Shown: positions 3,260 to 63,022 of the stretch, piece after piece
Position numbering within the stretch: the first letter of the stretch is position 1
Layout: each line of letters begins with the position of its first letter
Origin: a virus
Reading direction: 5' to 3' (one strand)
IMG/VR virus record: IMGVR_UViG_3300046007_003718
Location: 1-64,000 of that record
DNA length: 64,000 bases
Notes under the pieces: model-generated
Told to the model about the DNA's origin: nothing
The model's database searches: none
What the model saw: the letters and a program-made list of their open reading frames with translations, nothing else
Program-made: the position numbers and the translations under genes

Positions 3260-4357
3260 TTAGGCACCTTCATATGTTACAATTTCTTCTGGTTCAGGGT
3301 CTTCTAATGGATCTGCTTCCACTCTAAGTGGAATTATTTGCATCCAACGATTTAAAAAGTGTAAAGTAGCATTAGACGGGCTACCCAGATGGGCTGGATC
3401 TTTTCTATACACCTCAGTCAATTCATCATCTTTATTTAACGTTATTCGGTATGTTGTATTAACACTTTGTCTAGTATTTGCAGCAGCAAGGAAACCACTA
3501 AGCGTAGATGTTGGCAAAGATCCATTAATTGATAATCCTAATTGGAAACCAATATTATTATTTCCGCAGTACGCTTCGGCTCCACCGGAAAGAACATATT
3601 CTCCATCGTAAGGAACTCTTAAAACGGGGCTGCCACCATAATCAAAAATACTTGTTCCAGAAGTATTTGTATTTCCATTAAACCATGCTGTACCAATTGT
3701 TGTCACTTCTTCTGAAACAAAATTAATATAGGGAGCGCCCCCAATAAAAAGCCATTTATATTCAGAAATAGTTGCAGCGTGATATTTGAAAGACCATCCG
3801 ATATCTCTTTCGTCTTGCGTTGCAAAAAGATAATAACAATGTTGACCATCTACTACATTGCGAGATGGAATAAAATCATCAAAAGGAGTTATCAACTTTT
3901 GCGATACAACGACAGTTCCGGCATTTAATTGATCTAGAGTTGCAGACCCATATAAGGCACTTCCGGGAAAAGTTGCAGTTCCCAACTCTGCAAAACTATT
4001 TCTTGCCTTATTAAAATCACATATAATTTCTTGTTCTGCATTAATAAACAAACGTGACGGGGCATTGAGCCTTACATCTCCTCCAATAAGTTCTCCAACT
4101 GGTAGAGTTTCATTATCTTCTTCAAAGCGAGAATGAATTACCCAATTATTATCCAACTTTGTAACAAGCCAATGTTCCCCGACTTTGGGGACTTGCACAT
4201 AAGGAGATTGAAAAAATGCAAATGTCAATTGAATTTGTTGATTAGCAGAATCTCTTCCTTCAAGATATCCAACTGATGGATCACATTGGGTTATTCTAAT
4301 TTTTTTATATGAATATGCTTGATTTAACAAACGATATTGAGGAGTGTTTCCCATCAT
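3260..4357 (-). CDS. Baseplate spike-like protein with C-terminal beta domain
   Basis: N-terminal OB-fold-like VPKVGEHWLV motif; position in the baseplate cluster. Confidence 0.55.
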   Translation of the reverse strand: MMGNTPQYRLLNQAYSYKKIRITQCDPSVGYLEGRDSANQQIQLTFAFFQSPYVQVPKVGEHWLVTKLDNNWVIHSRFEEDNETLPVGELIGGDVRLNAPSRLFINAEQEIICDFNKARNSFAELGTATFPGSALYGSATLDQLNAGTVVVSQKLITPFDDFIPSRNVVDGQHCYYLFATQDERDIGWSFKYHAATISEYKWLFIGGAPYINFVSEEVTTIGTAWFNGNTNTSGTSIFDYGGSPVLRVPYDGEYVLSGGAEAYCGNNNIGFQLGLSINGSLPTSTLSGFLAAANTRQSVNTTYRITLNKDDELTEVYRKDPAHLGSPSNATLHFLNRWMQIIPLRVEADPLEDPEPEEIVTYEGA

Positions 4358-5196
4358 TCTGCAAATATCCTTCCAAAAGTTACTGTCTTATTTAAGACCC
4401 TATCTGTTGTATCTCTTAAATCATAAGTATGTTTTTTACCATAAACACCACGACCACCTAAACCTTGAGTTCCAAGAGAAATATCTCCAGTGGCGCTTAC
4501 CTTAACTTGACGGTCTGGGCCAGTATTTCCTTCAATAGTTGTAAAAAGTCCAATCTTTCCGCGATTTTCCCACGGTTTAATTCTCCATTTAGAGAAAAAA
4601 CCAACATGGTCATTTTGATAATCATCTGTTTCTAACCCGAAGACGACAAGATCGCCAGCCTCAACCTGCTTGGGTGAAATTTCTCTTAATTTTCTTTCTC
4701 CAATAAGACCAGACTCTCCCCAAGTTTTTGCTAAAGCAAGGCCATCGGTATCTTTAATATCTCTGAATCCTGCTTGGTAATAACACCAAGCGGTAAAAGA
4801 AGCACACCACGCGGCATTGTAAGCCCCTGTTATTTCTTGGTAAGGTGGAACTCCTAGCCTCGGACTTTGACTAATGTGAGGACCAGCACTATTGCCTTGC
4901 GTTGCTCGGATTTCTCTTTTGAATTCGCAATATGCAAATTCATAAGCCCTTCTTCTTATAAGCATATTTGATTTATATTTATTTGTATCATAAAAAGTTT
5001 TTCTTTTACTTTTTTTAGCAAATTCAAAAGGATTGTTCTTTAATTCAAAAGAAAAAACTTCAAATATATCTATACTCTTTGGAGTGCTACAAACTGCTGG
5101 AAAATCAGTAAATTGTTTTAAAGTTTCTGGGGGTACTCTTCCATAAAAGGGATCAAATAATTGATTATTATTTAAAGGAGTAATTATGCTTGCCAT
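4354..5196 (-). CDS. CHAP-domain peptidoglycan hydrolase
   Basis: AWCASF...GDLVVF...DHVGF...TIEGNT signature. Confidence 0.9.
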   Translation of the reverse strand: MASIITPLNNNQLFDPFYGRVPPETLKQFTDFPAVCSTPKSIDIFEVFSFELKNNPFEFAKKSKRKTFYDTNKYKSNMLIRRRAYEFAYCEFKREIRATQGNSAGPHISQSPRLGVPPYQEITGAYNAAWCASFTAWCYYQAGFRDIKDTDGLALAKTWGESGLIGERKLREISPKQVEAGDLVVFGLETDDYQNDHVGFFSKWRIKPWENRGKIGLFTTIEGNTGPDRQVKVSATGDISLGTQGLGGRGVYGKKHTYDLRDTTDRVLNKTVTFGRIFAE

Positions 5197-42072: not shown

Positions 42073-43110
42073 CTAGAAGGCCGTCACCTCCTCCACCTCA
42101 TCCTCGGACAGCAGGCCCGCCTCCACGATGAAGGGCGAGACCCCGGTGATGTTGCGCCCGTAGACGGAGGTGCTGCTGACGAACAGAACGTCCTCGGCGC
42201 GGGTCATGGCGACGTATGCCATGCGGCGCTCCTCCTCAACGTCCTGCGGGGTCTTGGCGAGCGCGTGGGGCAGCAGGCCCTCGCTCATCCCGGCGATGAA
42301 CACGACCGGCCATTCCAGCCCCTTGGAGCGGTGGATGCTGAGGATGGTCACGGCGTCGTCCTCGTTCTCGCCCCGGAGGTCGGAGGCCTTGGCGGTCACG
42401 CTCTCCTGCTCCACGAACCATGCGACGAACGCCGCGAGGTCGTCCCCGAACTCGGCCCCGGAGAGGGCTACGTCCTCCACGATTGCGATGGAGCCGTCGC
42501 CGTTGGTCTCGGGGGTCTCGGTGTCCTCCTCGGCCTGATCGCGCAGCCATGCGGCCACCCCGGAGTCCTCAGCGATGCCGCGCACAATGTCAATCACGGG
42601 CACCTTGCCGACCATCTCACGGTACTTGCGAATGAGGGCGATGAAGGCGTCCATGTTGTCCTTCTGGCGACGGTTTATACGGGCGTCCTTAAGGCCAAAG
42701 AACGGGTCGTTCGGGCAGGCAGCGTAGGCCTGACGGGCGACACCGGCACCAAGGAACCGCGAGGGCGTGGACAGGGCCGTGGTCAGGGCCTCCTCGTCGG
42801 CGTTGCCGACGACCACGCGCAGGTAAGAGGTGATCGCCTGAGTCTGGTACCGCTTCCAAAACGACGGGGAACCGATGATGCGAAAGGTGAAGCCAGCGCG
42901 GGTAAACGCGCTTTCCAGCGGGCGGGTCTGACGGTTGGTACGGACCAGCACGGCGATGCTCGCGCCGGGGACACCGGCATCGCGCAGGGCCTTGATCTGG
43001 GTGGCGATGTTGTCGGCCTCCTCGCCCTCGTCGTTGTAGTGCGCGTAGTTGATGGGGTCCAGCCCGGTGGCCGGGATGATGAACTCAGGGATATCGGTGG
43101 TGGTGTCCAT
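42073..43110 (-). CDS. UvrD/PcrA-like helicase, C-terminal half
   Basis: IAVLVRTN, SIHRSKGLEW (motif V), EEERR.AYVAMTRA (motif VI); own AAGGAG RBS. Confidence 0.92.
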   Translation of the reverse strand: MDTTTDIPEFIIPATGLDPINYAHYNDEGEEADNIATQIKALRDAGVPGASIAVLVRTNRQTRPLESAFTRAGFTFRIIGSPSFWKRYQTQAITSYLRVVVGNADEEALTTALSTPSRFLGAGVARQAYAACPNDPFFGLKDARINRRQKDNMDAFIALIRKYREMVGKVPVIDIVRGIAEDSGVAAWLRDQAEEDTETPETNGDGSIAIVEDVALSGAEFGDDLAAFVAWFVEQESVTAKASDLRGENEDDAVTILSIHRSKGLEWPVVFIAGMSEGLLPHALAKTPQDVEEERRMAYVAMTRAEDVLFVSSTSVYGRNITGVSPFIVEAGLLSEDEVEEVTAF

Positions 43111-43191: not shown

Positions 43192-44271
43192 CTACCCGGC
43201 CAGCACCTCCACCGGGACGCCCTCAGCCTCGTCGTGGTCACGGTGCGGGGCGACCTCCTTGCCCAGCCGCTCCTTGTTGTGGGCGATGAGGCGGGCCGCA
43301 GCCTCCACGATGGGGCGACGGGAGCGGTAGTTGGTACCAAGGTTCACGACCGTCACCTCGCCCTTAGTCTGGGCGATGAACTCGGCAGGGACCGCGCCCC
43401 GGAACGAGTAGATGCTCTGGTCGTCGTCCCCGACCATCGTGAGGTTGGAGGTCTGCGATGCCAGCACCCGCATGAGGCCGAACTGCACCGGGTTGCAGTC
43501 CTGCGCCTCGTCCACGAACACCCACTTGACGCGGCCGATCACGGCCTCGCGCACCTTGTCGTCCTTGGCGGCAGCGAGACCCCGGATGCCCATGCATGAG
43601 AAGGTGACGCTAATCACGCCGCCCTGCCGACGCTTCCAGCCCCGGTCGCGGCCCTTACCCTGAACCGCCCAACCCTCGTCCAGCAGGCGCTCCATGATCT
43701 TGTAAACGGTGCCCACCACCGGGTCGGCATCGGGCAGGGAGAGGTACTGCTCGGCGGTGAGGTTCTGGTCCATGATCTTGGACACGGCCTTGGCGATCTT
43801 GCCAGCCTTGCGGGGCATGTCCACGCCGTACTCGGAGCCGCCCCACTCGCTGTCGTTGGCGAGGTTGTGGCCGAACGGGCAGTAGCGCGAGGGAGCCTCT
43901 ACGATGCCGCGCACCATGCCTGTCACCTGACTCGGGGACAGCAGGGAGCCGCCGTACTTGCCAGCGTTTATCCGCTTACCCTTCTGCTGGCGGTAGAACT
44001 TGTACCCCAGCGAGTGCAGGGTGCCAACGTGGGCCAGCCGCTCCACGACCTCATCACCGACAAGGGTGGCAAGGCGGGACTTCATCTCCTCGGCGGCAGC
44101 CGTGGTGAAGGTAGCCAGCACGATGCTCTCGGGGGCCTCGCCCTCGGAGATGAGGCGGGCGACACGGTGAACCAGCACGCGGGTCTTACCGGAACCAGCA
44201 CCAGCGTTAATGACCAGCGGCCCCTCGCCGTGGTCAATCGCCGTCTGCTGCTCGGGACTCATGGTAGCCAT
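43192..44271 (-). CDS. UvrD/PcrA-like helicase, N-terminal half
   Basis: Q motif, AGAGSGKT, TFT..AA.EM, DEAQD, VGDDDQSIYSFRGA, NYRS; start re-called at MATMS (GGAGG RBS). Confidence 0.92.
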   Translation of the reverse strand: MATMSPEQQTAIDHGEGPLVINAGAGSGKTRVLVHRVARLISEGEAPESIVLATFTTAAAEEMKSRLATLVGDEVVERLAHVGTLHSLGYKFYRQQKGKRINAGKYGGSLLSPSQVTGMVRGIVEAPSRYCPFGHNLANDSEWGGSEYGVDMPRKAGKIAKAVSKIMDQNLTAEQYLSLPDADPVVGTVYKIMERLLDEGWAVQGKGRDRGWKRRQGGVISVTFSCMGIRGLAAAKDDKVREAVIGRVKWVFVDEAQDCNPVQFGLMRVLASQTSNLTMVGDDDQSIYSFRGAVPAEFIAQTKGEVTVVNLGTNYRSRRPIVEAAARLIAHNKERLGKEVAPHRDHDEAEGVPVEVLAG

Positions 44272-44315
44272 GCTCTTTCCTCCTCGTTCGGCGGGGCCGT
44301 TCCCCGTGTTCACGC

Positions 44316-44359
44316 ATCGTACCACAGGTGGTTCTGAGATTGCAAGTCCTCGTTTAGAC
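44316..44359 (-). promoter_or_regulatory. Promoter with TAAACG box
   Basis: GTCTAAACG-N5-TTGCAA-18-TACGAT. Confidence 0.75.
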
Positions 44360-44389
44360 GGGGTGCCGCATTGGCGTTTGGGCGCGAGT

Positions 44390-44930
44390 AGCACACCTTG
44401 TCTGAATCCACAAGTACCCCTTGTGCGTACTTGCTACAAAGTCGGTCCCGAGATTGTAAAGTCCCTGCTCCGAGCAGGCACTTTCACCAGAGCCGTTCTA
44501 CGGGCCTTGGAGGGATTCCCGAGGGTCGTTACACCTGAGACCTGTAAAGTCCCTGCTCGTAGCGACTTTCGGGGGTTGGCACGGAGGCCCGAGAATCGCC
44601 TGAGAGCGATTGTGGTGAGACTTTGTGCGAGATTGACACAAGCAAGTTGAGGTCGCTTGTGCGGATTCAGCACAATCTCAGTTGCTTGCACTCGCAAGGA
44701 CTCAGTTGCACTTGCAAGTACCTTGTAGCACTTTGTCACAAGAATCCCGTTAAAGCCGTTGGGTTTCTTGGGTATAAAAGCCTGAGATGTTGTTGGGATT
44801 CTTGTGCTGATTTCGCACAATGTTGTTGCAGTAGCAAGTACCTTGTTCAGTTTCGCACAAGGTCACGCTTGTAGGTATCCGCACAATGTAGTTGCAAGTG
44901 CAAGCACAGCGTTTACACGCGGTCCTCGGG
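44390..44930. repeat. Non-coding TTG/CAA-rich tract with direct and inverted repeats (candidate origin)
   Basis: CACAAGAATCCC inverted pair (44737/44795); GCAAGTACCTTGT x2; TTTCGCACAA x2; TGTAAAGTCCCTGCTC x2. Confidence 0.7.
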
Positions 44931-55203: not shown

Positions 55204-55246
55204 ATGGTATCAGATCAACCAACCAACTGCAACTACTCGTTTATAC
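55204..55246 (-). promoter_or_regulatory. Promoter with TAAACG box
   Basis: GTATAAACG-N5-TTGCAG-17-TACCAT. Confidence 0.7.
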
Positions 55247-55477
55247 TCCACGCCAACCAGAACAGGTGCCGCATGTGCAACAGCAACTTGTGGGGGATGC
55301 AAGCCAAAGGTAAGCGATAGCCCTCTCAGCATAACGTCCTTTACTATCGGCACAATAAATACGCTGCCAAATAGAGATTGTATCATCGCAGAAGTAACGC
55401 CTATGGGGGTTATCCCATGCCCTCTTATAGATAGGCTTATTAAACCACTCATTATTAGAGCATCCACATCCACACAT
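55241..55477 (-). CDS. Cys-rich small protein
   Basis: AAGGAGG RBS; CGCGC N-terminus and CCCTCGTC C-terminus. Confidence 0.65.
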   Translation of the reverse strand: MCGCGCSNNEWFNKPIYKRAWDNPHRRYFCDDTISIWQRIYCADSKGRYAERAIAYLWLASPTSCCCTCGTCSGWRGV

Positions 55478-55502
55478 AAAAGCCTCCTTTAATGATTTAT
55501 AC

Positions 55503-55596
55503 TACCCCTAGCGGGAGTCGAACCCGCGATAAACTTCCGCGTAAGCCAAGCGTCCTTGTGCGTTACCGGCGTCGTTGCCGCTAGACCATTAGGGGC
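55503..55596 (-). ncRNA. tRNA-like RNA with the anticodon arm replaced by a long hairpin
   Basis: Acceptor GCCCCTA/TAGGGGT+A; D arm GTC-TAGCGGCAAC-GAC; T arm GCGGG-TTCGACT-CCCGC; no 7-nt anticodon loop. Confidence 0.8.
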
Positions 55597-55602
55597 ATGA
55601 GT

Positions 55603-55630
55603 ATTATAGACGGTTCCACAATCAAGTCAA
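55603..55630 (-). promoter_or_regulatory. Near-consensus sigma70 promoter of the tRNA-like RNA
   Basis: TTGACT-16-TATAAT, 6 nt before the first G of the acceptor stem. Confidence 0.75.
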
Positions 55631-55846
55631 AGGTAGGCTTGACGTAACAATGCCCGCTCCCTGCTCACCCGTCACCGACAACCGATTCCTTTAGTTTACT
55701 TATTATTAGTATAAATGGCTCTCGCGCCTAACGTCCCATATTGGTTGTTAGGATTTCCCGACCTACCAATCGGTTTCTTACGGAGATTCCTCCACCCCAC
55801 TAGGTCAAGAGTGGTAGCCCTCGCCTAGTAGGTCGTGAGAACCGCT
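55631..55846 (-). ncRNA. Candidate structured ncRNA released by the hammerhead
   Basis: Pairings GGTTCTC/GAGAGCC, CGACCTAC/GTAGGTCG, CCTAAC/GTTAGG, AACCGATT/AATCGGTT; no long ORF. Confidence 0.55.
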
Positions 55847-55891
55847 GACGCCTCTCGGCGTTTCGTCCTATCAGGACTCGTCAGAGCGGCT
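55840..55891 (-). ncRNA. Type I hammerhead ribozyme
   Basis: CCGCT-CTGACGA-GTCC(TGATA)GGAC-GAAA-CGCC(GAGA)GGCG-TC^AGCGG: full catalytic core, three stems, GUC cleavage triplet. Confidence 0.93.
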
Positions 55892-56041
55892 AGTTGCCAT
55901 TACCTTCTTATGAACCTGCATAACCCAACCATCCTCAAAGTCGTGAGCATCACACGCCTCGCCAAGACTTTCGTAGGGGCCATAAGCCATGTACCCCGTA
56001 GAGAGATTACCGACAAGAAATACAAAAGTGTAGTCACCCAT
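55871..56041 (-). CDS. 56-aa protein whose stop codon lies in hammerhead loop II
   Basis: AAGGAG RBS; promoter TTGCAT-17-TATGCT at 56100-56072. Confidence 0.6.
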   Translation of the reverse strand: MGDYTFVFLVGNLSTGYMAYGPYESLGEACDAHDFEDGWVMQVHKKVMATSRSDES

Positions 56042-56103
56042 GAATCTATCTCCTTTCTCGCTTGCCCAACAAGCATACAGCACTCAATCTAGAAATGCAA
56101 GCC

Positions 56104-60939: not shown

Positions 60940-62133
60940 CTACTTCTCGTCAAGAGGAGGAGCGTCTGGAATGGAGCGGATAAACTCCTCAACGATAGCC
61001 TCCTCTTGCTCCCCGATTTTCTTATCAACGCGCTTCTTAAACTCGTCAATCTGCGCCTTGTATTGATCGGGGAATAGAGCCTGCATTTGTTCGATAGAAA
61101 CAAGGACGGTTGCCATCGCGCTTGCAAATTCAGAAAGAGAAGAAACAATCGCCCTTCCATTTGGAGTGTCTACGATCTCTGCCAACTCGTCGGGTGGAAT
61201 TTTAGCCATTTTAATATCCACTTCAGAACCGATGGCGCTAAGAAGGTTGTGAATGCCCTCCATAATCACGATTGCCATCTCGCTGATGTTCATCTCTTTT
61301 GCCGTTTCCCAATTGGCATTTATAATCATCTTTAACTTGTCGGGCACTTTATCATCTTTAGGCATAATAATTATCTAACTAACTTTCTAATAGAATTTAA
61401 TAGGATTTAACTATCTAACTAACTTAAATTAGTCCCATCTTACGAAATGGGGATGTGCATCCTACAGGGCACCAACCATCCATCTCTACATATTCACCGT
61501 GGGGGCAAATTAGGTGAAAGTCGAAAGGGTCATTGCCTTCCATCTCCCAATCATCTGGTAGCAAATCTTCTAGAGTCTCCCAAAGACCATCATACTTGCT
61601 CATCATCACCCTCTCGTAAATAAATTAATAAACTATCTATCTGACTATTTACTGCTGAAAGATTCTCCATCATAGTTTTCTTAATCTTATCAGATTTTGA
61701 TTCATGAAACAACTGCATTAGTTCATCTCTTTCCAAGAATAGATTAACTAACTTATTTGAAAGATACAACTTTTGTTCAGCGATTTCTTTTTGTTCAAGT
61801 GCTTCTGCCATCTTTTTCCAAAGATGCTCTGCTTGATAAAAACGCCACGGGTCTTTTTCTTTATCTTCACTCACTACTTAAATTTTCGTTCTTTTCGTTA
61901 GAAAGAGCCTTTTCCTTAGCAGACCGCGATGCTAAACGGAATAAATCACCATCTGCATTTTTTGAAGCCCATATTGAGAGTCCACGCTTTTTTGTCTTTG
62001 CAATAACATGCAATTTATCTCCAGAGATGTGGCATTTGCCCGGAGTGTGCGTTTCGGGGTCTTGCCAAACTTTCTTTTCTTTCCAGCCTTTAATTTCTTC
62101 AGGCGGGTTGCGACCTTCTCCCAATGGCTCCAT
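60940..62133 (-). CDS. Hypothetical genes (60940-61365, 61424-61609, 61590-61874, 61867-62133)
   Basis: Packed ORFs. Confidence 0.5.
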
Positions 62134-62137
62134 TTGT

Positions 62138-63022
62138 TTATCCTTCCTGTGATCTGAATACGTTTGGCGCGATTCTTTGAAGTTGTATACGGACAAGTTT
62201 TGCAACTTCTTGGAACATAGCATCTGCTTCTGGGGTGTCGCGCTTTTGTAGATATTCATACCAAGACCTAAGATTGCCTGTGATAACCATCTTTGTTTCC
62301 GTACATTCTGGAAGGATTGCTCTCGCCGCCTCTCGGCTTTGCTTCTTAAGTGCAAAAGAGTCCTCCCCAATACTATTGTAAAGATCGCTAAGGTTATCAA
62401 CATACTTCTTTCCAACCTTTTCGCCATAATTCAAAAACTCCTTCTCAATATTCTTCTCTCTCCACAGAGCGGGAGGAATAACTAACTCAACCTTGTCGGG
62501 TACAAAAAATCTTTGAGAAAGTTGTGAATAATTAAAATGACGATGCCTGACCTGTTCATGACTCCAATAACGCGGGACTCTATCAACATAGATGGAAACA
62601 TGAGTATGTTCTAAAATTGAATAGTGACCCACTTCCATAATATGTTCAAGATAGTCTGACGCATTCTTTCGCCCTGCCTTGTCACCAAATGATTGATAAC
62701 AAATTCTTCCAGCAAAGATTGGAACCTGTTCTTCTAAAGCAGAGTCATCCTCAATCTTATGACCAAACAATTCCGACAACTCTCTAAAGGGAGAGGGATA
62801 TTTAAATGAATCCCACATCGGACGAGATGACTGAATCGCCACCACGCGAGGTTTGCCAAGGAAAACACGGCTGTATTTACCCTCAAACACAAGACGAGAT
62901 ACATCACCCCACACACCTGTAAAGGTGTCTTTTTCAACGTATTCCTTTAGGGGTGTCGTTACATCTGACTTAAATAAACTTAAAAGTGATTTCATAACTA
63001 GAATGGCCTTCTCATTCCACAC
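62138..63022 (-). CDS. thyX: FAD-dependent thymidylate synthase
   Basis: AGRICYQS, GH.SILEH, RHRHFNYSQLSQR, REAAR..LP, TGNLRSW. Confidence 0.95.
   Translation of the reverse strand: MWNEKAILVMKSLLSLFKSDVTTPLKEYVEKDTFTGVWGDVSRLVFEGKYSRVFLGKPRVVAIQSSRPMWDSFKYPSPFRELSELFGHKIEDDSALEEQVPIFAGRICYQSFGDKAGRKNASDYLEHIMEVGHYSILEHTHVSIYVDRVPRYWSHEQVRHRHFNYSQLSQRFFVPDKVELVIPPALWREKNIEKEFLNYGEKVGKKYVDNLSDLYNSIGEDSFALKKQSREAARAILPECTETKMVITGNLRSWYEYLQKRDTPEADAMFQEVAKLVRIQLQRIAPNVFRSQEG

What the first reader, a model, noticed from the sequence alone, without database searches (positions are those of the whole stretch)
55503..55630. tRNA-like RNA with intact elbow and acceptor but no anticodon
Seen: a 94-nt element with canonical acceptor, D loop (with GG) and TTCGA T loop. 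The anticodon arm is an extended bulged hairpin (CCG-GTAA..GC..CAAG-GACG-CTTG-GC-TTAC..CGG) and the variable region is 9 nt. No CCA is encoded. The promoter would start it at or near +1 of the acceptor stem, and the next gene's RBS follows about 12 nt later. The conserved elbow and dedicated promoter argue against simple decay. Inference: a decoy for elbow-recognising enzymes or anticodon nucleases, or a 5' stabilising leader for the Cys-rich gene.
Basis: partly seen in the sequence, partly recalled or inferred. Interest (0 to 1): 0.75.

Follow-up and report, generated by a model that had tools for sequence, protein, structure and literature searches.

The report
Anticodon-less tRNA-Glu mimic in phage RNA cassette
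A lake-water phage keeps a gene for a tRNA-shaped RNA, descended from a glutamate tRNA, whose anticodon arm has been replaced by a long capped hairpin; it cannot read codons, and it is the last part of a conserved non-coding RNA unit that begins with a self-cutting hammerhead ribozyme.

Summary
On the minus strand, 55596-55503 holds a 94-nt tRNA-shaped RNA. Its acceptor stem, D arm, T arm and tertiary-pair nucleotides are canonical. A 33-nt bulged hairpin replaces the anticodon arm, the variable region is 9 nt, and no CCA is encoded.

It is not decay. Three further lineages of related phages carry it. The body is 94-96% identical between lineages whose flanking proteins are only 50-68% identical. 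The arm keeps its pairing and an invariant tip while its middle varies. No single excision restores an anticodon loop. The body is of bacterial tRNA-Glu type.

It always ends one cassette: type I hammerhead, then a structured RNA of one of two unrelated types, then a hairpin built from two conserved boxes, then the mimic. The "dedicated promoter" lies inside that hairpin, and one lineage lacks a workable version. The downstream gene differs in every lineage.

Best reading, about 0.5: the mimic is a handle for RNase P, RNase Z and the CCA-adding enzyme, as mascRNA is for MALAT1. Cutting there frees the upstream RNA and yields a stable RNA that displays a conserved hairpin. A decoy role stays open. 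The function is untested.

First readers of this scan noted the same cassette in this genome. Follow-up agents reported similar long-armed mimics beside hammerheads in jumbo phages; I did not test those notes.

The parts
55503..55596 (-). tRNA-Glu-derived tRNA mimic, 94 nt (G1 = 55596, Y72 = 55504, N73 = 55503)
   Evidence: Sequence. ARAGORN. RF00005 scores 13.3 bits against a cut-off of 29. Conserved in L212, L003 and L002. The body matches bacterial tRNA-Glu.
55537..55569 (-). Extended 'anticodon' arm: 13 bp with three bulges and a GACG loop
   Evidence: Folds. Relatives have 37-38 nt arms of similar length, with changed middles.
55547..55560 (-). Invariant arm tip CACAAG-GACG-CUUG
   Evidence: Identical in all four sequences. 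It is the only copy on the gene-bearing minus strand of the 110-kb record; a 2-mismatch look-alike lies on the plus strand at 61099.
55528..55536 (-). 9-nt variable region AAGUUUAUC
   Evidence: Invariant except A/G at the second base.
55603..55630 (-). Sigma-70-like promoter TTGACT-N16-TATAAT, overlapping box 2
   Evidence: 11 of 12 matches. The -35 is kept in W, L212 and L002. It is lost in L003, where TATAAT is 3 nt from G1.
55603..55619 (-). Box 2, GTGGAACCGTCTATAAT, invariant
   Evidence: Unique in the genome.
55669..55685 (-). Box 1, TCGGTTGTCGGTGACGG, invariant
   Evidence: With box 2 it forms the base of a hairpin in RNAalifold, which lists 8 pairs changed on both sides. Single-sequence folds are not exceptional.
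55715..55846 (-). Type A structured RNA domain, the 3' product of hammerhead cleavage
   Evidence: RNAalifold gives 42 pairs. The closing helix is GGUUCUC/GAGAGCC. Three pairs show compensatory changes. z = -3.0 for 55848-55598. L002 carries an unrelated type B RNA here. Metatranscriptome contigs cover it.
55841..55890 (-). Type I hammerhead ribozyme, predicted cut between 55847 and 55846
   Evidence: Rfam RF00163 at 29 bits, cut-off 34, E = 4.5e-5 for the 601-nt search. The full core is present. L003 has compensatory changes in stems I and III. One copy per record.
55241..55477 (-). Downstream 78-aa Cys-rich ORF; RBS at 55483-55489
   Evidence: No Pfam or PHROG match. Not conserved after the mimic in relatives.
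55871..56083 (-). Upstream 70-aa ORF whose last codons and stop lie inside the hammerhead
   Evidence: Homologues lie upstream of the cassette in L212 and G002.

Best explanation
The element is a real, selected gene for a non-decoding tRNA mimic that descends from a tRNA-Glu. The anticodon stem-loop has been replaced by a hairpin about twice the normal length with an invariant tip. It is the 3' module of a conserved non-coding cassette of about 390-450 nt: hammerhead, structured RNA (type A or B), box 1/box 2 hairpin, mimic.

Proposed mechanism (inferred, not shown): read-through transcripts from the co-directional upstream genes are cut by the hammerhead, which leaves a 5'-OH at 55846. RNase P recognises the intact acceptor/T-arm/elbow and cuts before G1. 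This gives the upstream structured RNA a defined 3' end and uncouples it from the downstream mRNA. RNase Z, or RNase E in the AU-rich trailer, trims after N73, and the CCA-adding enzyme of host or phage adds CCA. The result is a stable RNA of about 97 nt whose long arm shows the conserved hairpin to an unknown partner. Where the promoter exists it may add a second route of supply. The logic is that of MALAT1/mascRNA, or of engineered ribozyme- and tRNA-flanked RNAs.
For: Shown:
- The tRNA body and its tertiary-pair nucleotides are intact.
- The body is 94-96% identical across lineages whose 11 canonical tRNAs are 72-96% identical, mean 85%. Flanking proteins are 50-68% identical.
- Against G001, the cassette blocks are almost the only alignable DNA in 5.5 kb.
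- The arm interior varies (67-87% identity) but every variant folds into a hairpin of similar length with the same tip.
- The order hammerhead, RNA, boxes, mimic is the same in all four sequences. The middle RNA is swapped in L002, and the neighbouring genes differ.
- The hammerhead and the type A RNA show compensatory changes.
- L003 cannot make the mimic from the promoter.
- N73 varies (A, U, G, U), even between W and the otherwise identical L212. This argues against a fixed aminoacylation identity.
- All four phage records encode a class II CCA-adding enzyme. In the three relatives where the tRNA cluster is seen, all 11 tRNA genes lack CCA.
- Short contigs from RNA libraries cover 55889-55615 and two of them stop at 55615, 19 nt before G1. 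This is only a weak hint of an RNA end there.

From the literature: a tRNA-like ncRNA with a 7-bp acceptor stem is cut by RNase P and receives CCA in Mycobacterium smegmatis (PMC4201824). RNase P at mascRNA matures MALAT1 (abstracts of PMC8457004 and PMC4824109, listed).
Against: No cleavage, CCA addition or stable 95-nt species has been observed. The RNA libraries were only available as contigs, may contain DNA, and hold no contig over the mimic itself. A mere processing handle would not need an invariant arm tip or an invariant variable loop, so an added trans-acting role is needed to explain them. Only three independent lineages are known, and the body stems never vary, so covariation cannot support them. 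A near-consensus promoter that would start at G1 in three of four sequences fits an independent transcript equally well. The box hairpin is not more stable than shuffled sequence.
Confidence: 0.5

Rival explanations
1. Decoy or sponge. The mature, CCA-tailed mimic soaks up a host factor that recognises the tRNA(-Glu) body or the acceptor end rather than the anticodon. Examples are defence toxins that modify tRNA 3' ends, or a tRNA-Glu-binding enzyme. Processing of the upstream RNA would then be incidental.
For: Sequence-level invariance of the whole body and the arm tip. The tRNA-Glu-type acceptor and D arm are retained. The phages invest in 11 tRNAs and their own CCA-adding/repair enzyme with an HD domain. 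The mimic lies 56-66 kb from the tRNA cluster, among small early-type genes.
Against: No target is known. Anticodon nucleases need the loop that is missing. The tRNA-Glu 'augmented D helix' is altered: U13-C22 replaces U13-G22, there is an extra connector base, and the variable region is 9 nt instead of 4. N73 is not conserved. One gene copy is a weak sponge unless it is highly expressed.
Confidence: 0.2
2. 5' leader. The mimic is the first 94 nt of a primary transcript that starts at G1 from its own promoter. It stays attached and protects or regulates the downstream mRNA.
For: TTGACT-N16-TATAAT at 11 of 12 matches, with G1 at the expected start distance in W, L212 and L002. There is no terminator between the mimic and the next RBS, which lies 13-25 nt away.
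Against: L003 lacks the -35 and has only 3 nt between the -10 and G1. The downstream gene differs in every lineage, and L212 shows no RBS or start codon in the bases after the mimic. A tRNA-shaped 5' end would be a substrate for RNase Z or RNase E in its AU-rich trailer. A plain hairpin would serve as a stabiliser, so the conserved elbow would be unexplained.
Confidence: 0.12
3. Relic. A captured tRNA-Glu gene, or an attP-type tRNA fragment, was disabled by an insertion and is drifting without function.
For: The body is clearly of tRNA-Glu type. The 3' strand of the arm keeps YUUAYG, which may be a remnant of the CUUUCA anticodon loop (my reading).
Against: The body is 94-96% identical between lineages whose surrounding DNA no longer aligns. 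The arm tip is invariant and arm pairing is kept. The position inside the cassette is fixed. Both acceptor strands are present, unlike an attP core. The inserted hairpin is not a repeat of this genome.
Confidence: 0.05
4. A decoding tRNA after removal of a small intron, or one that reads through an unusual arm.
For: ARAGORN can force tRNA-Val(gac) with a 9-nt intron in W. The YUUAYGC string looks like an anticodon loop.
Against: An exhaustive search of single excisions finds no 5-bp stem with a 7-nt loop (U33, R37) in W. With one mismatch allowed, the solutions for L002 and L003 are mutually inconsistent. ARAGORN's model does not transfer to the relatives. No bulge-helix-bulge and no group I intron is present: Rfam found nothing there, and 16-21 extra bases are too few for a group I intron. 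The phages already have tRNA-Val(UAC), tRNA-Ile(UAU) and tRNA-Glu.
Confidence: 0.03

Closest known systems
mascRNA / MALAT1 (and menRNA / NEAT1) of vertebrates
   Same: A tRNA-shaped, non-decoding RNA sits directly 3' of a structured ncRNA on one transcript. In the known case RNase P cutting at its 5' end makes the mature 3' end of the upstream RNA, and the small RNA is then freed (abstracts of PMC8457004 and PMC4824109, listed).
   Different: This one is in a bacterial virus rather than a vertebrate nucleus. The upstream RNA is about 250 nt and its 5' end is made by a hammerhead. The mimic keeps a full D arm and elbow and has a doubled arm. No processing has been shown here.
YrlA, the tRNA-like bacterial and phage Y RNAs bound by Ro60/Rsr (Chen et al. 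2014, PMC4201824; Rfam RF02553)
   Same: It is a non-decoding ncRNA with conserved T and D arms and tRNA tertiary pairs. The mycobacterial YrlA is cut by RNase P and receives CCA.
   Different: In YrlA the RNA ends lie in the Ro-binding stem, which takes the place of the anticodon stem, and the acceptor is a closed stem-loop. Here the topology is that of a tRNA. I see no GNCGAAN0-1G motif in the sequence (motif). No TROVE gene was found in four records. The YrlA model scores 14.5 bits against a cut-off of 69.
Bacterial tRNA-Glu (Rfam RF00005)
   Same: Same acceptor stem GCCCCUA/UAGGGGU plus A73. Same D arm GUCUAGCGGC. The T arm differs by one base from a Thermomicrobiales tRNA-Glu(UUC).
   Different: No anticodon loop. 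One extra base before U8. C22 instead of G22. The variable region is 9 nt instead of 4. The score is below the Rfam cut-off.
Hammerhead ribozymes that punctuate phage transcripts (Perreault et al. 2011, PMC3088659)
   Same: A canonical hammerhead lies between co-directional phage genes, and cutting of a long transcript is the presumed role.
   Different: That work describes hammerheads flanking protein genes. Here a single hammerhead is paired with a tRNA mimic around a non-coding RNA.
Phage T4 stable RNAs, species 1 and 2 (rnaC, rnaD); from memory, not checked here
   Same: Small stable phage RNAs of unknown function that are matured by the tRNA-processing machinery.
   Different: The T4 RNAs lie inside the tRNA cluster. 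This mimic lies 56-66 kb from the cluster and inside a ribozyme cassette. No sequence comparison was made.

Membership tests
Canonical tRNA (RF00005) | 7-bp acceptor stem, D arm with A14, G18G19 and A21, and T arm with U54 U55 C56 and A58 | tested here: met
   Read directly. Identical in all relatives.
Canonical tRNA (RF00005) | 5-bp anticodon stem with a 7-nt loop (U33, R37) | tested here: not met
   A 33-38-nt hairpin with a 4-nt loop stands in its place. No excision restores the stem-loop.
Canonical tRNA (RF00005) | Score at or above the Rfam gathering cut-off of 29 bits | tested here: not met
   13.3 bits in W, 20.3 in G002, 22.7 in G001 and G003. The 33 canonical tRNAs of the same records score 51-74 bits.
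Canonical tRNA (RF00005) | Aminoacylation, with a conserved discriminator base as an identity element | tested here: inconclusive
   N73 is A, U, G and U in the four sequences, which speaks against a fixed identity. Charging itself cannot be tested with these tools.
tRNA-Glu lineage (ancestry only) | tRNA-Glu-type acceptor stem and GUCUAGNGG D arm | tested here: met
   Of the six genomic tRNAs that share the 23-mer and that ARAGORN recognises, four are tRNA-Glu. The 5' half, which was not part of the search pattern, matches at 20-22 of 28 positions.
tRNA-Glu lineage (ancestry only) | U13-G22 pair, 4-nt variable loop and UUC/CUC anticodon. That these mark GluRS identity is from memory. | tested here: not met
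   C22, a 9-nt variable region and no anticodon.
YrlA / bacterial Y RNA | Ro60 (TROVE) gene in the same genome or next to the RNA | tested here: not met
   No PF05731 match in G000-G003. The records are 48-82% complete.
YrlA / bacterial Y RNA | GNCGAAN0-1G motif, RNA ends in the Ro-binding stem, and a match to the RF02553 model | tested here: not met
   I see no such motif in the sequence (motif definition). The ends are at the acceptor stem. The model scores 14.5 bits against 69 in L002 and gives no hit in W.
tmRNA | tRNA-like domain made from the two RNA ends, plus a tag reading frame | tested here: not met
   ARAGORN finds no tmRNA. The Rfam tmRNA hit covers only the 18-nt T arm.
mascRNA-type processing module (works like, not homologous) | tRNA-shaped RNA immediately 3' of a structured ncRNA on the same strand | tested here: met
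   The same order is found in four sequences. The upstream RNA shows covariation.
mascRNA-type processing module (works like, not homologous) | RNase P cut at the 5' end of the mimic, and CCA addition to it | not testable with these tools
   Only contigs of RNA libraries were available. Two stop 19 nt before G1. A CCA-adding enzyme gene is present in all four records.
Hammerhead ribozyme type I (the neighbouring element) | Core CUGANGA, GAAA and a cleavage-site C17 after stem III (GUC in three sequences, AUC in L003), with three stems | tested here: met
   All core bases are present. L003 has compensatory changes in stems I and III. The score is 29 bits, below the cut-off of 34.

The most novel reading that the evidence does not exclude
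The cassette is a natural, modular 'RNA expression unit' of phages. A hammerhead at the 5' side and a tRNA mimic (an RNase P/Z handle) at the 3' side excise a swappable cargo ncRNA of type A or B. This would be the natural counterpart of engineered ribozyme- and tRNA-flanked RNAs. The freed tRNA-Glu mimic, CCA-tailed by the phage's own enzyme, would act in trans through its invariant hairpin or its tRNA-Glu body as a decoy or adaptor in the phage-host conflict over tRNA. If the long-armed mimics beside hammerheads that this scan reported in jumbo phages are the same kind of device, it would be a widespread, undescribed class of phage RNA module.
Probability: 0.2. Interest if true: 0.8.

Novelty: new variant of a known kind. 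Interest (0 to 1): 0.6.

Why it matters
Non-decoding tRNA mimics are known from a few settings: mascRNA, YrlA, viral tRNA-like structures and tmRNA. I found no description of a phage mimic that keeps the whole tRNA core, replaces only the anticodon arm and is wired into a ribozyme cassette. I looked in Rfam 15 and in the paper library.

If the processing model holds, it shows that phages combine a self-cleaving ribozyme with host tRNA-maturation enzymes to cut out defined ncRNAs. It would also provide two new structured RNAs (type A and type B) whose ends are predictable and testable. If the mimic acts in trans, it is a handle for finding a new tRNA-directed interaction between phage and host. 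Every prediction here (ends at 55846, 55597/55596 and 55503 plus CCA) can be checked with one end-mapping experiment.

Tried and rejected
Intron hypothesis: exhaustive single-excision searches found no canonical anticodon stem-loop in W. The near-solutions in L002 and L003 are mutually inconsistent. ARAGORN's Cys(aca) and Val(gac)+intron models are forced and do not transfer to the relatives.

Known RNA families: Rfam at gathering level found nothing in the window. At permissive level it found only the hammerhead, an 18-nt T-arm hit to tmRNA, and noise.

Y RNA: no TROVE gene.

More homologues:
- Seven pattern scans and one protein-based scan of IMG/VR gave only L002/L004 and L003 plus chance hits.
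It added only L154, L189 and L212.
- One GTDB genome scan found nothing. The second found the tRNA-Glu look-alikes.
- GenBank phages have no DNA match.

Small ORF after box 1 (TTG start): the peptides are not conserved beyond five residues and the ends differ (read), so it was rejected as coding.

Tip hairpin as a copy of a phage operator: there is no second copy on the gene strand.

Pairing of the tip loop with the hammerhead's GCGUC: not kept in L003.

The tip fits the CANGGANG hairpin bound by CsrA/Rsm proteins. This is from memory. It is a single site, and the likely actinobacterial host group is not known to me to have CsrA. I did not pursue it.

RNA libraries: no contig covered the mimic. 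With contigs only, this says nothing about expression of the mimic.

Neighbouring proteins: no informative Pfam or PHROG matches.

Full report
**What is there.** The window is the first 64 kb of a 110,395-bp IMG/VR virus record, 42.8% G+C, estimated 70% complete, with all large genes on the minus strand. On that strand, 55596-55503 reads as a tRNA body.
- The acceptor stem is GCCCCUA/UAGGGGU.
- The D arm carries A14, G15, G18G19 and A21.
- The T arm is GCGGG-UUCGACU-CCCGC.
- If one extra A is placed between A7 and U8, every standard tertiary partner is in place: U8-A14, G9 with C12-G23, G10-C25, G15-C48, G26-A44 and U54-A58.

Where the 17-nt anticodon stem-loop should be there are 33 nt. They fold into a 13-bp hairpin with three single-base bulges and a GACG loop (-12.5 kcal/mol, z = -2.8). 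The variable region has 9 nt. No CCA is encoded. The next gene's AAGGAGG follows 13 nt after N73.

ARAGORN reports the element only through forced models: Cys(aca) with a mispaired stem, or Val(gac) with a 9-nt intron. The Rfam tRNA model gives 13.3 bits against a cut-off of 29.

**It is conserved, not decaying.** Pattern scans found the same element in three other lineages:
- L212, a metagenome contig close to the window;
- L003, in the 129.6-kb viral record G002;
- L002 = L004 = L154 = L189, in records G001 and G003.

Outside the arm, the body is 94-96% identical between lineages. The few differences lie in the D loop, at position 45, at position 72 and at N73. The 11 canonical tRNAs of G001 and G002 are 72-96% identical, mean 85%. 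Proteins flanking the element in W and G002 are only 50-68% identical. Between W and G001, the hammerhead and the stretch from box 1 to the mimic are almost the only DNA that still aligns in 5.5 kb.

The interior of the arm is 67-87% identical. In each lineage it folds into a hairpin of 13-15 bp with the same tip, CACAAG-GACG-CUUG. That tip occurs once on the gene strand of the record.

**It cannot decode.** An exhaustive search for any single excision that leaves a 5-bp stem and a 7-nt loop with U33 and R37 found nothing in W. With one mismatch allowed it found only mutually inconsistent solutions in L002 and L003. No group I intron or other known RNA family was found there. N73 is A, U, G and U in the four sequences. 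It differs even between W and L212, which are otherwise identical across the element. That speaks against a fixed aminoacylation identity.

**Ancestry.** A search of 185,579 species' genomes for the T-arm plus acceptor 23-mer returned nine loci. ARAGORN called six of them tRNAs, and four of those are tRNA-Glu. A Thermomicrobiales tRNA-Glu(UUC) has the same acceptor stem with G1-U72 and A73, the same GUCUAGCGGC D arm, and a T arm that differs by one base. The 3' half matches by construction of the search; the D arm does not. The mimic differs from tRNA-Glu in having one extra connector base, C22 for G22, a 9-nt instead of a 4-nt variable region, and the replaced arm. The conserved YUUAYG on the 3' strand of the arm may be what is left of the CUUUCA anticodon loop. 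That last point is my inference.

**Context: a three-part RNA cassette.** About 245 nt upstream on the same strand lies a type I hammerhead at 55890-55841 (Rfam 29 bits, cut-off 34). It has every core nucleotide and a predicted cut between 55847 and 55846. The upstream ORF ends inside it. The alignment of the four sequences shows the same order everywhere.
- Hammerhead. L003 has compensatory changes in stems I and III.
- A structured RNA. Type A is found in W, L212 and L003. It has 42 predicted pairs, three of them with compensatory changes, and a closing helix that re-uses part of the 3' strand of hammerhead stem I. L002 has an unrelated type B RNA at the same place.
- An AU-rich linker.
- Invariant box 1, a variable stretch, then invariant box 2.
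- Three to six nt, then the mimic.

RNAalifold pairs box 1 with box 2 at the base of a hairpin and lists eight pairs changed on both sides. L003 has lost bases from both strands of this hairpin. The single-sequence folds are no more stable than shuffles, so I treat the hairpin as probable, not established.

There is one cassette per record. In G001 the cassette lies between different genes than in W and G002. It therefore behaves as a self-contained module.

**The promoter.** TTGACT-N16-TATAAT at 55630-55603 is a near-consensus sigma-70 site and would start transcription at or next to G1. The -10 is part of invariant box 2, and the -35 lies on the 3' strand of the box hairpin. In L003 the -35 is gone and TATAAT is only 3 nt from G1. 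A start there would truncate the acceptor stem. At least in that lineage the mimic must be cut out of a longer RNA. The promoter may be a real second source elsewhere, but it is not what defines the element.

**The rest of the genome.**
- The record ends with a 636-aa class II CCA-adding enzyme: PolyA_pol head, RNA-binding, HD and tRNA_NucTran2_2 domains. Its best NCBIfam model is the actinobacterial CCA transferase, below that model's cut-off.
- G001, G002 and G003 have homologues of this enzyme at 64-90% identity.
- Next to that gene they have 11 canonical tRNA genes, none of which encodes CCA.
- In the window's record that cluster is probably beyond the contig end. 'The only tRNA of the genome' is therefore an artefact of an incomplete record.
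- The mimic lies 56-66 kb from the cluster, among small genes of unknown function.
- The DnaE polymerase is nearest, at 31% identity, to those of Gordonia, Rhodococcus and Mycobacterium phages. An actinobacterial host is a reasonable guess and nothing more.
- No Ro60 gene was found.

**Expression.** The exact stretch is in many lake-water DNA runs. Four metatranscriptome runs, from seawater and salt marsh, each hold one short contig of 156-168 nt at 95-99% identity. Together they cover 55889-55615, that is the hammerhead, the type A RNA, box 1 and part of box 2. Two of them end at 55615, 19 nt before G1, and none covers the mimic. These are contigs and DNA may be present in such libraries. This is a weak hint that the upstream RNA exists as RNA and ends near the mimic.

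**How it most likely works.** The intact acceptor stem, T arm and elbow are what RNase P, RNase Z and CCA-adding enzymes recognise. A tRNA-like ncRNA with a 7-bp acceptor stem is cut by RNase P and receives CCA in Mycobacterium smegmatis (PMC4201824). I therefore read the mimic as the 3' processing handle of the cassette. The hammerhead makes the 5' end of the structured RNA, and RNase P cutting before G1 makes its 3' end and separates it from the downstream mRNA. The mimic is then trimmed, given CCA, and released as a stable RNA. This is the logic of MALAT1 and mascRNA (abstracts listed).

The invariant tip and variable loop are more than a handle needs, so a role in trans for the freed mimic is likely. 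It could be a decoy or an adaptor that displays the hairpin, but nothing identifies the partner. All processing steps are inferred. What is shown is the anatomy, the conservation, the fixed architecture and the loss of decoding capacity.

**Comparison and novelty.**
- It is not a tRNA by its anticodon arm or by model score.
- It is not YrlA by topology, motif, partner gene or model score.
- It is not tmRNA.
- It resembles mascRNA in logic only.
- Hammerheads that punctuate phage transcripts are known (PMC3088659), but not paired with a tRNA mimic around an ncRNA.
- First-stage notes of this scan describe the same cassette in this genome, and my tests agree with them. Follow-up reports describe long-armed tRNA mimics next to hammerheads in jumbo phages of enterobacteria. 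I did not test those. If they are related, the device is widespread.

I class it as a new variant of a known kind (non-decoding tRNA mimics), with moderate to high interest. It rests on only three independent lineages, and there is no experimental evidence of processing or function.

Noticed in passing
window 55715-55846 (-); L003 3065-3196 (-); L212 872-1003 (-): Type A structured RNA of about 130 nt directly after the hammerhead cut site. It matches no Rfam family. It has three compensatory pairs and a closing helix that overlaps the 3' strand of hammerhead stem I, which suggests a refolding after cleavage. Metatranscriptome contigs from seawater and salt marsh cover it at 95-99% identity.
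   Followed up: partly
L002 about 3990-4205 (-): Type B RNA of about 165 nt occupies the same slot of the cassette in the G001/G003 lineage. It has no clear sequence similarity to type A apart from short strings such as UAACAACC, and it matches no Rfam family.
   Followed up: no
window 55603-55685 (-): Two invariant boxes (TCGGTTGTCGGTGACGG and GTGGAACCGTCTATAAT) frame a variable hairpin. The 3' strand of the hairpin carries the -35 hexamer, and the single-stranded tail after it is the -10. The same bases therefore look like a promoter in DNA and like a conserved structure in RNA. Which constraint dominates is unexplained.
   Followed up: partly
G000 108363-110273 (-), outside the window (L250 8363-10273): A 636-aa phage CCA-adding enzyme with an HD domain and a C-terminal extension of about 170 aa that is not matched in the G001/G003 homologue (the match stops at residue 472). 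It lies next to the CCA-less tRNA cluster in the relatives.
   Followed up: partly
window 42073-43110 (-) and 43192-44394 (-): A UvrD-type helicase is split into two adjacent ORFs, the N-terminal half of 400 aa and the C-terminal half of 345 aa, 81 nt apart. This could be a split gene, a frameshift or a small intervening element.
   Followed up: no
L271 about 4570-4660 (+), Solirubrobacterales MAG: A chromosomal stretch with the same acceptor strands and T arm (UUCGACU) as the mimic, but no D arm. ARAGORN does not call it. It may be a tRNA fragment at an integration site or another tRNA-like RNA.
   Followed up: no
window 55537-55545 (-): The 3' strand of the arm keeps YUUAYGC in all lineages (CUUACGC, CUUAUGC, UUUAUGC). 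This has the pattern of an anticodon loop (Y32 U33 NNN R37). In W it is paired with GUAA on the 5' strand, much as the anticodon pairs with the intron in intron-containing pre-tRNAs.
   Followed up: partly
window 62138-63022 (-); L248 15485-19590 (-): The phage encodes ThyX, RecA and a DnaE-type polymerase III alpha subunit, and outside the window DnaB and DnaG. The nearest cultured relatives of the DnaE are actinobacteriophages, at 31% identity.
   Followed up: partly
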